From: Hydrolagus affinis
Taxonomy: Eukaryota
Assembly (NCBI GenBank): GCA_012026655.1
Contig: JAAILG010000686.1
Span: 1 to 64,000, forward strand
Direction of reading: 5' to 3'
Length of the DNA: 64,000 nucleotides
Every line of letters starts with the position of its first letter. Position 1 is the stretch's first letter. A program made the position numbers. This document shows positions 54,001-57,000 of this stretch, piece by piece.

Positions 54001-57000
54001 AGTTCTTTCCCTCTCTATTTGCTTTTCACTTATTTATATCTGTTGAATCCTGAAATACAGATAGCAGTGGTCCCTCAAGTACCGTGTCAAGTGCTGGCCC
54101 ATCATCTCCCAACACGTCTGACAATTCCCCGAGATTTAGCTTCAGTGAGAAGTCATCACTTACATCTCAGAGTAGTGAAGAACAGCAGCACTGTGGACAG
54201 CAAATTACTCCAAGTCAACAGATGTGTCAGAGTCAATCAACACCAAGTATCCAGGGCAACCAGGGACAAACCACACAATGCATCCAGAGTCAACCAGTAA
54301 CTCCAAGTCTGAACCAACCTAAACACCGTGCTCAGGTCATCCAGGGGCAAGCAGTAACTTCTAGCCCGAGCCAACCAACACTTGACACTCAGGAGAACCG
54401 GAGACATACAGTAACTCTGAGCCAGAGTCAACCATCACATGGTATGCAGGGCAGCCTGAGTCAACCAGTAACTCTAAGCCAGAGTGACAAAGATCAGCAA
54501 GGTGATAGACCCAGCCAGCAGCAACAGTCCACTGAAAGCCAACACCTGAGCCACAGTCAACCAACACAAGGCGTTAATGACAGCAAGACGCAACAAGCTA
54601 CTCAAGATCAACAACTCGACCAGACTTGTAAGGACCCACAGGGTCAGATAGGTTCAACGAGTAGTGGAAGCCCTAGTGGAGATCTAGCATCAACAACAAC
54701 AGCAACAACAAAATTACATTTATAGAGCACCTTTCATGTCGGGAGGCGCTCACACAAGCAGATCATTTTTCAGTTACTCACCACCAGTTGTAATGAATCA
54801 ATGGTTTACCAGAGAGAGCATTGGTGTACATTTTATATTTAGTATCTAGTGGTATAGATCTGGTATTGGTACCACTGAAATGACTGACACTGAAGTAAGC
54901 CATTTGCACTCTCCAGATTAGATCTAATCAAGTATGGCTGTGTACTTATACCTCTGACCTCGTGGTTTGTTTCAGTCTGATATTGGAATATGTTAGTATT
55001 GGAATGTGTAGATATATCTGTAATTTGCAAATTTCTTATGCCCTTACCTGTGCACAGAAAACTTATTTCTTTACCCGGTATATTTTGTAAGTTTTACATA
55101 ATTATTTAATGATGGTTTTGTGCAAATCTGAGATGAGTTTAAACCTTGAGATTGAAAGAACTTTTTTTCCAATTATATTCTACAAAAAGTAACCAATCAC
55201 AGCAAAATATGAACGTGTGATGTGTGTCTATAATAAGGTGAACCATTCAAATTAAGATGAGGTTAGCAATTCAATGTTGCATCGATTTGGTGCCTATGAA
55301 CTGAACAAAGTGAGGGTGAAAATGTTGGACAATGGAATATCCTTCCATTTTGCACACGTGATCAGGCAAATTGTGGCTTGTGTGGGATGAGAGAAAGAAC
55401 TGCATCATACTTGAGTGGCCATCAAAACTTTCCAAGAGGAATAACTGAAAAATACTCTGAACATTTTGCATTTAGTTCCTGAAAACTTGTTTTAAAATGT
55501 GTTTTTGTACAAGTGCTGCCAATACATGTTGATTTGAGTGTGACAGGAGTTATCTCACAGGTATGGACCACCATTTATCACCCCACAATGTGTGCTCTTA
55601 GAGATTGAGTAGCACAAATTACCCGTAACAAAAAAAACAATGCAATGCATTTCCTCCAGTGAGCTCCTTACCAAAACCTTAATATAACTACTGATTCCAA
55701 TATTGGTTTTGAAGTCAAGGCGTCATGTGAGATTAATTCAGCCTTTAGGAGCCCTCGAATGCTTCATGATAGTTGAAAACTTCCAGTAACTGTATTTTTT
55801 TTTAACCTATCATTGTATTGCTTTAGTTGGTACAAATTGCAGTTTGAGATGATCAGTGTTATTTGATGTGGATGTTTAACTAAATTTGACGAGCTGACAA
55901 AAATCCTGCACTGGGTCCGTTCACTTGCCAAGTGCTCGTGATATACTGCAAAACGTGTGGCGTTCCATACATGTTTGGAAAGTATAAATGTTTTTGTTTT
56001 CAGTGATGAAATGCACATTGTTCTCAGGCACCAACTGAACTGATGTGAAACGCACAGCAACAGTTGAGCTGGGTTAGGAGGTGAGGTTTTTCCTTCTACC
56101 GCAAGAGGTGATGGCTGCTTCATGGTTGGGACGATTGAAAATTTCAAAGGGACAGCTAACGGTATACGTATATCACAATCAACACCCAGAGGTTTGACCA
56201 CCAGCACTTCAATTCCCTTTAGCAGTTTTGTTTTGCAATGTTTTTCTTTTCAGAAAAACTGTTTCAGAAGAGCTTATGAAACTTGCTAAAAGCATCTGCC
56301 CTCCTACTGATCCTTGCTACAGCAGTGAATAAAAGTGAAAGTGATGTGGTTTGAAGTTTAAAGAAAATACTGATGACGTTTCATAGGGTGATTAATTTCC
56401 ATGTCTGGTTGGTCGGCAGACTTCCTCGTTGCCCAGTGCATGGCGATTTCTTTTAACATTCTAAAACAAGCATGCTACTTTTGACAATTCATACTGACTA
56501 TGGAAGCAGAATTAATATTTTCTCTTTATACACAGCAGGAACCAGCAAGTACAGCAAAAATATGCAGCAAAATTCAATTTGACTTCCTGCTCATGCTCTC
56601 ATAGTCACACACACAATCGTATAATGGCATTATTAATTTTTTATGTACACTATATTTGTTAAAATATTCAAGTGATTAAGGTTATTCTTGAGGCAATGGA
56701 TGCTGCCTTTGCTGGGTATTAGCCACATCAAAAATAATAATAACAATAATAATTTGGTCACTCAATCCACGACTGCTTGTGGGACACTGCTGTGTGCAGT
56801 TGGCTGCCGCATTTTACACATAAAATATACAATCAATTCACTTTGTAGTATATTCTGTGAACCGCCTTGAGACTTCTCGCAGACGTGATAAGGCTCTATA
56901 TCGAACGCAAGGATCATTATTATCAAGTTGTGATATGCTGTCCTCATTGCTGCCTAACTTTATTGAAATTGTGCTGCAATTGTCATAAAATGGGTGGGGC

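What the first reader, a model, noticed from the sequence alone, without database searches (positions are those of the whole stretch)
54690..54800. PPIP5K1 C-terminus and stop codon are supplied by an antisense retroposon tail
Seen: the last codons (TTTATTKLHL*) are ACAACAACAGCAACAACAAAATTACATTTATAG, followed by AGCACCTTTCATGTCGGGAGG. This is the reverse complement of the L2-like 3' tail found many times in the introns (e.g. 61005-61056). Inference: a retroposon inserted into the terminal exon and rewrote the protein end. The sequence after the element can still be read as TQADHFSVTHHQL*, a possible ancestral ending.
Basis: partly seen in the sequence, partly recalled or inferred. Interest (0 to 1): 0.7.

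Follow-up and report, generated by a model that had tools for sequence, protein, structure and literature searches.

The report
Repeat tail rewrote PPIP5K protein end
In this chimaera-like fish genome a 59-base scrap of a common mobile element landed backwards in the last coding exon of the inositol-pyrophosphate kinase gene PPIP5K, replacing its last 14 amino acids with 11 new ones and a new stop; this is a clean but ordinary example of a known kind of event.

Summary
Window 54691-54749 (59 nt, boundaries uncertain by about 3 nt) is an antisense, 5'-truncated copy of an interspersed repeat's 3' tail. A profile built from 14 other copies in the window, with the exon copy left out, finds it at E=2.8e-13.

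It lies inside the terminal coding exon (54061-54725) of a complete PPIP5K gene. Read in frame, it gives S-TTTATT-KLHL and the stop TAG at 54723-54725.

The closest available orthologue is Callorhinchus milii PPIP5K. All 13 of its isoforms that contain this exon end in ...SGDPAFTPADTFSVTHHQL*. The window reads ...SGDLA, then the insert, then TQADHFSVTHHQL* in the frame that a 59-nt insert displaces. That stretch matches the C. milii end at 11 of 13 residues, with the stop in the same place. No shuffle of 5000 scored as well. This amounts to an empty site at protein level plus a still-intact relic of the old ending.

Not settled:
- transcript evidence for the new ending
- the element's library name; "L2-like" rests on one paper, not on a consensus comparison
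- whether the gene is PPIP5K1 or PPIP5K2

This is a new member of a known kind, of modest interest.

The parts
54061..54725 (+). Terminal coding exon of the PPIP5K gene as it now reads: acceptor AG at 54059-54060, 220 full codons from 54063, stop TAG.
   Evidence: The stop-to-stop ORF runs 54054..54725. The acceptor context was read. tblastn of C. milii isoform P0004 gives residues 1241-1420 at 54093-54641 with 87% identity. The local alignment reaches ...PSGDLAS. There is no Pfam domain. Composition is S 20.5%, Q 19.5%, T 11.4%.
54691..54749 (-). 59-nt 5'-truncated copy of the interspersed repeat's 3' tail, ending in a (GTT)n run. The element's sense strand is the window's minus strand. Boundaries are uncertain by up to about 3 nt.
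   Evidence: nhmmer with a profile of 14 other copies gives E=2.8e-13, profile positions 43-97. blastn to 61005-61057 gives 92.6% over 54 nt. The length of 59 (2 mod 3) equals the offset between the present frame (codon starts 0 mod 3) and the relic frame (2 mod 3).
54690..54722 (+). Eleven new C-terminal codons, S TTTATT KLHL. The S codon spans the junction and the other ten are wholly element-derived. The poly-Thr comes from the antisense (GTT)n run.
   Evidence: Translations.
54723..54725 (+). New stop codon TAG, the antisense of CTA in the tail's CTCTATAAAT motif.
   Evidence: The same CTCTATAAAT variant is present in 4 of 14 other copies (60976-61056, 11365-11448, 16195-16285, 6841-6928), so the stop most likely arrived with the element.
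54750..54793 (+). Relic of the ancestral ending, now 3' UTR: (t)tc aca caa gca gat cat ttt tca gtt act cac cac cag ttg TAA. This reads (F)TQADHFSVTHHQL*, with the old stop at 54791-54793.
   Evidence: It aligns to the last 13 residues of C. milii P0004 at 11 of 13 identical, with the stop at the same place. None of 5000 shuffles of 54726-54830 reached the observed score (60 against a maximum of 34).
60976..61056 (+). Closest other copy of the tail in the window (sense on +), downstream of the gene.
   Evidence: 98% identity to the majority consensus over the shared part.

Best explanation
A non-LTR retroposon RNA that carries the shared 3' tail (...CCTCCCGACGTGAAAGGCGCTCTATAAATGTAATTT(GTT)n) was reverse-transcribed into the last coding exon of PPIP5K. 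The RNA came from a SINE or its partner LINE. The event happened in the lineage of this holocephalan after it split from the Callorhinchus lineage.

Copying started at the 3' (GTT)n end and stopped after about 59 nt (5' truncation). The copy lies antisense to the gene, and no target-site duplication is visible.

Because 59 is 2 mod 3, the insert shifts the frame. Read antisense in the incoming frame, the tail gives S-TTTATT-KLHL, and its CTA becomes an in-frame TAG. The last 14 ancestral codons and their TAA became 3' UTR. The predicted protein loses 14 residues and gains 11.

The new stop lies in the last exon, so by the usual rule it should not trigger nonsense-mediated decay. The change also falls at the tip of a long, domain-free, S/Q/T-rich tail. 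Both points would explain why it is tolerated.

Shown here: the identity of the insert with the repeat tail, colinearity with the orthologue on both sides, and the intact relic ending. Inferred: retroposition as the mechanism, the timing, escape from decay, near-neutrality, and that transcripts really read this way.
For: **Repeat identity**
- E=2.8e-13 against a profile that excludes the exon copy. The match covers only the 3' part of the model, positions 43-97.
- 92.6% identity to the copy at 61005-61057.
- The window holds 14 further strong copies, 9 on the plus strand and 5 on the minus strand.

**The gene**
- 29 tblastn segments, all on the plus strand, from 256 to 54641, cover 1396 of 1454 residues of C. 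milii isoform P0004 at 88.9% identity.
- PPIP5K2_N and His_Phos_2 are the only Pfam hits above their curated cut-offs among 129 ORFs.

**Empty site at protein level**
- All 13 C. milii isoforms that include this exon end in ...SGDPAFTPADTFSVTHHQL.
- The window reads ...SGDLA, then the insert, then (F)TQADHFSVTHHQL*, with 11 of 13 residues identical and the stop in the same place.
- 0 of 5000 shuffles reached the observed score.

**The stop codon**
- 4 of 14 other copies carry the CTCTATAAAT variant that yields the in-frame TAG.

**Literature**
- Luchetti et al. 2017 (PMC5499810; abstract and the Results section read) report that C. milii CmiSINEs (302,861 copies) and SacSINE1-CM (218,294 copies) share about 160 bp at the 3' end with the tail of the LINE L2-2_CM.
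- Nair et al. 2018 (PMC5857911; two passages seen) describe the PPIP5K1 C-terminal region as a noncatalytic, intrinsically disordered domain.
Against: - There is only one comparison species, and the comparison is at protein level only. No eukaryotic DNA collection was available.
- Elasmobranch orthologues end in ...GLVET and cannot be aligned to this ending. Polarity (insertion here or loss in C. milii) therefore rests on parsimony, not on an outgroup.
- No target-site duplication is visible, and the insert's ends are uncertain by about 3 nt. Capture of repeat DNA or cDNA during break repair is not excluded.
- No protein with the new ending exists in the protein collection. The 'longer' and 'near' length searches found none, so there is no evidence of expression.
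- The tail was not compared with any L2, CmiSINE or SacSINE1 consensus. Rfam gave 0 hits and ARAGORN found 0 tRNAs. No reverse-transcriptase ORF lies in the window.
- The predicted tail hairpins are only marginally better than shuffles in 3 of the 4 non-exon copies folded, with z-scores of -0.38, -1.18, -1.49 and -3.48.
Confidence: 0.8

Rival explanations
1. The element was already in the terminal exon of the common holocephalan ancestor, and Callorhinchus later lost exactly these 59 nt, restoring the older frame.
For: No outgroup can polarise the event, because elasmobranch orthologues end in an unalignable ...GLVET. The minus-strand bases just beyond the insert (54750-54756) match the repeat consensus weakly and without gaps: 13 of 18 positions, my own count from the sequences.
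Against: The deletion would have to remove precisely the repeat-derived segment, including its (GTT)n end. It would also have to leave both flanks colinear with no residue gained or lost. The relic ending in the window is still an intact 13-codon match ending at the same stop. That is what a later insertion predicts.
Confidence: 0.04
2. The 59 nt are real repeat sequence but were not placed by target-primed reverse transcription. They were captured as filler DNA or cDNA during repair of a double-strand break, or copied from a nearby repeat by a templated insertion.
For: No target-site duplication is visible and the piece is very short. Copies of the same tail lie nearby on both strands.
Against: The fragment runs exactly to the element's natural 3' end, including the (GTT)n run. 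It is missing only 5' sequence (profile positions 43-97). That is the signature of reverse transcription primed at the 3' end and aborted early. A random captured piece would not be expected to end at the tail.
Confidence: 0.07
3. The insertion is in the assembly but does not set the protein end. It could be a heterozygous or rare allele or an assembly error, or transcripts could avoid it, for example through the short isoform that reads through the previous exon's donor.
For: No transcript or read data could be consulted. The ORF 53319..53477 reads through to ...DKPAWCE*, and three C. milii isoforms end in ...EKPAWCE. A terminal-exon-free isoform therefore probably exists here too.
Against: All 13 long C. 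milii isoforms use this terminal exon to its end. The 59-nt segment does not begin with GT, so it cannot be removed as an exact intron. The segment carries 2 mismatches and one 1-nt gap relative to its closest copy, which fits a real, aged insertion and not a mis-join.
Confidence: 0.08
4. The resemblance is chance: a simple ACA/AAC codon run in a low-complexity exon.
For: The exon is S/Q/T-rich, and part of the match is a trinucleotide run.
Against: The non-repetitive 38 nt (CG-CCTCCCGACATGAAAGGTGCTCTATAAATGTAATT) carry most of the match. The profile E-value is 2.8e-13. C. milii has no counterpart to these residues.
Confidence: 0.01

Closest known systems
Shared 3' tail of CmiSINEs (SINE2-1_CM, SINE2B-1_CM), SacSINE1-CM and the LINE L2-2_CM of Callorhinchus milii (Luchetti, Plazzi and Mantovani 2017, PMC5499810)
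   Same: The host group is the same (Holocephali). The repeat is very abundant and interspersed, lying in and around genes. Several repeat bodies share one 3' end: in the window some copies share about 400 bp while others share only the tail.
   Different: The paper found SINE hits in C. milii mRNAs only in 3' UTRs, 104 and 34 hits. The copy here sits in coding sequence.
5'-truncated, 'dead on arrival' non-LTR retroposon insertions made by target-primed reverse transcription (general knowledge, recalled)
   Same: Only the 3' end of the element is present and it ends in the element's terminal repeat run.
   Different: No target-site duplication could be seen. The mechanism was not tested.
Coding sequence and stop codons taken from transposable elements, such as antisense SINE or Alu pieces that give new C-termini (general knowledge, recalled; no specific paper read)
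   Same: An antisense SINE/LINE piece supplies the last residues and the stop of a conserved protein. The ancestral end is displaced into the 3' UTR.
   Different: This is a direct insertion into an existing terminal coding exon. It is not the recruitment of an intronic element as a new exon. Expression is unverified.

Membership tests
PPIP5K (VIP1/VIP2) kinase-phosphatase | N-terminal PPIP5K2_N / ATP-grasp kinase part and a histidine-phosphatase (branch 2) domain in one gene | tested here: met
   PF18086 at 3558-3809 (E=6.9e-27) and PF00328 at 19541-19810 (E=2.1e-5, above the cut-off). 29 colinear tblastn segments to C. milii PPIP5K.
PPIP5K1 as opposed to PPIP5K2 | Groups with tetrapod PPIP5K1 and not with tetrapod PPIP5K2 | tested here: inconclusive
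   NCBI names the C. milii orthologue kinase 2. Among the top 120 hits of exon 19565-19789, the tetrapod hits are named kinase 1 or VIP1 (21) or carry a generic name (2), and none is named kinase 2. Chondrichthyan and teleost isoforms of a single locus carry both names. No tetrapod PPIP5K2 sequence was fetched and no tree was built.
L2-clade LINE tail and the SINEs it mobilises (L2-2_CM, CmiSINE, SacSINE1-CM) | Sequence match of the tail to the L2-2_CM / CmiSINE / SacSINE1-CM consensus | not testable with these tools
   No Repbase, Dfam or RepeatMasker was available.
L2-clade LINE tail and the SINEs it mobilises (L2-2_CM, CmiSINE, SacSINE1-CM) | Interspersed multicopy element on both strands with a common 3' end closed by a short tandem repeat | tested here: met
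   14 strong copies plus the exon copy, 9 on the plus strand and 6 on the minus strand in all. 8 weaker matches have E<=1e-3. The tails end in (GTT)n.
L2-clade LINE tail and the SINEs it mobilises (L2-2_CM, CmiSINE, SacSINE1-CM) | tRNA-derived head with A and B boxes on full-length SINE copies | tested here: inconclusive
   ARAGORN found 0 tRNAs. Of 24 A-box-like and 9 B-box-like matches (one mismatch allowed, motifs recalled), only one A-box-like site lies within 600 nt upstream of a tail: 2538-2548, which is 371 nt from the tail at 2076-2167.
L2-clade LINE tail and the SINEs it mobilises (L2-2_CM, CmiSINE, SacSINE1-CM) | CORE or Deu conserved domain in the SINE body | not tested
The resemblance of the long copies (31323-31720, 5856-6230, 2076-2420) to a Deu-type body is recalled only.
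L2-clade LINE tail and the SINEs it mobilises (L2-2_CM, CmiSINE, SacSINE1-CM) | 3' stem-loop in the tail RNA | tested here: inconclusive
   An outer AGCGCCTT/AAGGCGCT stem with an inner ACGTC/GACGT stem is predicted in 37410-37482 (z=-3.48). The other three non-exon copies folded give z-scores of -0.38 to -1.49. No covariation test was run.
Transposable-element-derived protein C-terminus | Element homology inside the reading frame, including the stop | tested here: met
Transposable-element-derived protein C-terminus | An orthologue without the element at the same site | tested here: met
   Met at protein level only and in one species: 13 of 13 C. milii isoforms that hold the exon.
Transposable-element-derived protein C-terminus | A transcript or protein that shows the new ending | not testable with these tools
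   No protein with the new ending is in the collection. No RNA-seq data were available.

The most novel reading that the evidence does not exclude
The new ending may be more than a tolerated accident. It could be a fixed, lineage-wide change that altered partner binding of the disordered PPIP5K tail: the protein now ends in L-H-L, a hydrophobic-x-hydrophobic C-terminus, where it used to end in H-Q-L. More broadly, the antisense tail of this very abundant holocephalan repeat (poly-Thr or poly-Gln followed by a ready-made TAG in one frame) could act as a recurrent 'terminator cassette' that has reshaped many protein ends in chimaeras.
Probability: 0.06. Interest if true: 0.6.

Novelty: new member of a known kind. 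Interest (0 to 1): 0.3.

Why it matters
This is a clean case of how a mobile element can rewrite the end of an old, conserved signalling enzyme without destroying it. The insert, the new stop and the displaced, still-readable old ending are all visible together.

It also gives a presence/absence marker for holocephalan phylogeny, because C. milii lacks the insert at protein level. It is an entry point for asking whether the extreme C-terminus of PPIP5K's disordered tail matters.

In the one study read on C. milii, SINE matches in mRNAs were all in 3' UTRs, so a coding-sequence case is uncommon. The kind of event is well known, though, and the likely functional effect is small.

Tried and rejected
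**Searches that added nothing**
- Rfam at gathering thresholds over the whole window: 0 matches.
- ARAGORN: 0 tRNAs.
- Pfam on all 129 stop-to-stop ORFs of 75 aa or more: only the two PPIP5K domains passed their cut-offs. There was no reverse transcriptase and no neighbouring gene.
- 'Near'-length protein search with the terminal exon, aimed at transcript fragments of a close relative that carry either ending: 53 hits, best 77% identity over 19% of the query, none holocephalan-like.
- Cluster look-up of six C. milii representatives, in case another chimaera hid in those clusters: only C. milii isoforms, plus one unnamed 320-aa kinase-domain fragment (P0243) that does not reach the C-terminus.
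- A-box and B-box scan for SINE heads: one weak candidate.
- Literature search for the tail motif as a string: 2 unrelated papers.
- Literature search for PPIP5K with 'transposable element': 7 papers held both terms and 6 were listed, none on this topic judging by title and abstract. In the broader search none of the 15 papers listed held 'PPIP5K'.

**Outgroup attempt**
- Elasmobranch C-termini could not serve as an outgroup, because they cannot be aligned to this ending.

**Steps not possible**
They may hold the tail alignment that would settle the family name.

**Rejected readings**
- Chance resemblance.
- Removal of the insert as an intron, because the segment has no GT at its start.

- The 'excision' was not made as a joined sequence; the two flanks were translated and aligned separately.
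- The contig is not taken for human, since its best matches are to C. milii.
- The N run at 51604-51703 was left as it is.

Full report
**What is in the sequence.** The frame that is open from 54054 ends ...GDLAS TTTATT KLHL and stops at TAG 54723-54725. The letters from about 54691 to 54749 are the reverse complement of a repeat tail...CCTCCCGACGTGAAAGGCGCTCTATAAATGTAATTT(GTT)n. That tail recurs through the window on both strands.

**Strength of the repeat match.**
- blastn of 54660-55000 against the window gave 92.6% identity over 54 nt to 61005-61057 (E=1.3e-16), plus about a dozen further matches.
- I aligned 14 copies, leaving the exon copy out, built a profile and searched the window.
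- The exon copy came back at E=2.8e-13. Profile positions 43-97 aligned to 54748..54694 on the minus strand.
- So only the 3' part of the element is present, and it runs to the element's own (GTT)n end.
- The 14 model copies lie 9 on the plus strand and 5 on the minus. Eight weaker matches (E<=1e-3) were also found.
- Twelve of the 14 lie within the gene.

**The gene.**
- The terminal-exon ORF (223 aa) found Callorhinchus milii PPIP5K isoforms at 84% identity over 90% of the query. Every other hit matched only the conserved first 11-30% or so.
- tblastn of C. milii isoform P0004 against the window gave 29 segments, all on the plus strand, from 256 to 54641. They cover 1396 of 1454 residues at 88.9% identity. 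The window therefore holds the whole gene.
- Pfam on all 129 stop-to-stop ORFs of 75 aa or more found only PPIP5K2_N and His_Phos_2 above their cut-offs.
- The terminal exon starts after the acceptor AG at 54059-54060, has no Pfam domain, and is S/Q/T-rich.
- This fits the noncatalytic, intrinsically disordered C-terminal region described for mammalian PPIP5K1 (PMC5857911, two passages seen).
- By inference, the organism is a holocephalan other than C. milii. The contig is not taken for human.
- Searches used single exons only.

**The empty site.**
- All 13 C. milii isoforms that contain this exon end in ...IGSTSSERPSGDPAFTPADTFSVTHHQL (P0001-P0005; P0240, P0242, P0244-P0249).
- The window aligns to this up to ...IGSTSSGSPSGDLA and then diverges.
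- After the repeat-derived segment, the frame whose codons start at positions that are 2 mod 3 reads TQADHFSVTHHQL and stops at TAA 54791-54793.
- That stretch aligns to the last 13 residues of the C. milii protein at 11 of 13 identical, with the stop at the same place.
- None of 5000 shuffles of 54726-54830 reached the observed score, 60 against a maximum of 34.
- The present frame starts codons at 0 mod 3, so the two frames differ by exactly what a 59-nt insert gives.
- Placing the insert at 54691-54749 leaves gca t|tc aca caa gca gat, which reads A F T Q A D against C. milii A F T P A D. No residue is gained or lost.
- Shifting the 59-nt frame by one to three bases gives L or S in place of F, so the ends are uncertain by about 3 nt.
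- I did not build the excised sequence. The two flanks were translated and aligned separately.

**Where the stop comes from.** The TAG is the antisense of CTA in the tail's CTCTATAAAT. Four of the 14 other copies carry this variant, and the rest have ATATAAAT-type variants that give no stop in that frame. The stop therefore most likely arrived with the element and did not arise later. Over its non-repetitive part, the exon copy differs from the majority consensus by three mismatches and one 1-nt gap in about 38 nt. One of those mismatches is the subfamily variant. This places it among the less diverged copies, which range from 74% to 98% identity.

**Polarity and mechanism.** Elasmobranch orthologues end in ...GLVET and cannot be aligned to this ending, so there is no outgroup. 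Insertion in this lineage is still far more economical than loss in C. milii. A loss would have to remove exactly the repeat-derived letters, tail included, and restore an older frame. The presence of the element's natural 3' end together with the missing 5' part is what reverse transcription primed at the 3' end and aborted early produces. That is inference. No target-site duplication is visible, so capture of repeat DNA or cDNA during break repair remains a minor alternative.

**Likely consequences.** The new stop is in the last exon. By the usual exon-junction rule (general knowledge) the mRNA should escape nonsense-mediated decay. The predicted change is 14 residues replaced by 11 at the tip of a disordered tail.

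**What the element is.**
- Luchetti et al. [quoted passage not shown] They number 302,861 and 218,294 copies.
- In C. milii mRNAs all of their SINE hits (104 and 34) were in 3' UTRs.
- In the window some copies share about 400 bp (31323-31720, 5856-6230, 2076-2420), while others share only the tail. This fits several elements, or many truncated copies, with one common tail.
- I could not compare the tail with any consensus.
- 'L2-like' is therefore plausible but untested.
- Rfam found nothing, and ARAGORN found no tRNA.
- The box-motif scan gave one weak head candidate. The predicted tail hairpins are mostly no better than shuffles.

**Gene name.** NCBI calls the C. milii orthologue kinase 2. 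Among the top 120 hits of the conserved exon 19565-19789, the tetrapod hits are named kinase 1 or VIP1 (21) or carry generic names (2), and none is named kinase 2. Isoforms of single shark, ray and teleost loci carry both names.

**What stayed unchecked.**
- Orthologous DNA. The one DNA collection open for contig scans holds bacteria and archaea only and was not used.
- Transcripts and raw reads.
- Other holocephalans. None appeared in the protein searches or in the cluster look-up.

**Verdict.** It is a tidy new instance of a known kind of event, of modest interest.

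Noticed in passing
window 53238-53323 (+) and exon 53337-53468: A sense-oriented copy of the same repeat tail ends 13 nt before the splice acceptor of the penultimate coding exon. Its (GTT)n run and flank therefore lie in the branch-point and polypyrimidine region.
   Followed up: partly
window 53319-53477 (+): Reading through the donor of the penultimate exon gives ...DKPAWCE*. Three short C. milii isoforms (P0241, P0175, P0250) end in ...EKPAWCE. A short isoform that lacks the terminal exon, and so the insert, seems to be conserved.
   Followed up: partly
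window 60946-60993: A 24-nt unit is repeated in tandem (60946-60969 and 60970-60993) directly 5' of the tail copy at 60996-61056.
   Followed up: no
window 31323-31720 (-), 5856-6230 (-), 2076-2420 (-): Three longer copies share about 400 bp upstream of the tail, which looks like a SINE body. Only the copy at 2076-2560 has an A-box-like motif near its 5' end. The resemblance to a Deu-type SINE body is recalled, not tested.
   Followed up: partly
window 51604-51703: A run of 100 N lies in the intron before exon 52854-53015. It was left as it is.
   Followed up: no
window 55767-56249 (-): A 161-aa stop-to-stop ORF lies downstream of the gene and has no Pfam match. It is probably chance or repeat-derived.
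   Followed up: no
window 19565-19789 (+): Automatic names of PPIP5K isoforms are inconsistent: isoforms from one locus in sharks, rays and Danio are called kinase 1 and kinase 2 side by side. The tetrapod hits closest to this exon are all named kinase 1 or VIP1.
   Followed up: partly
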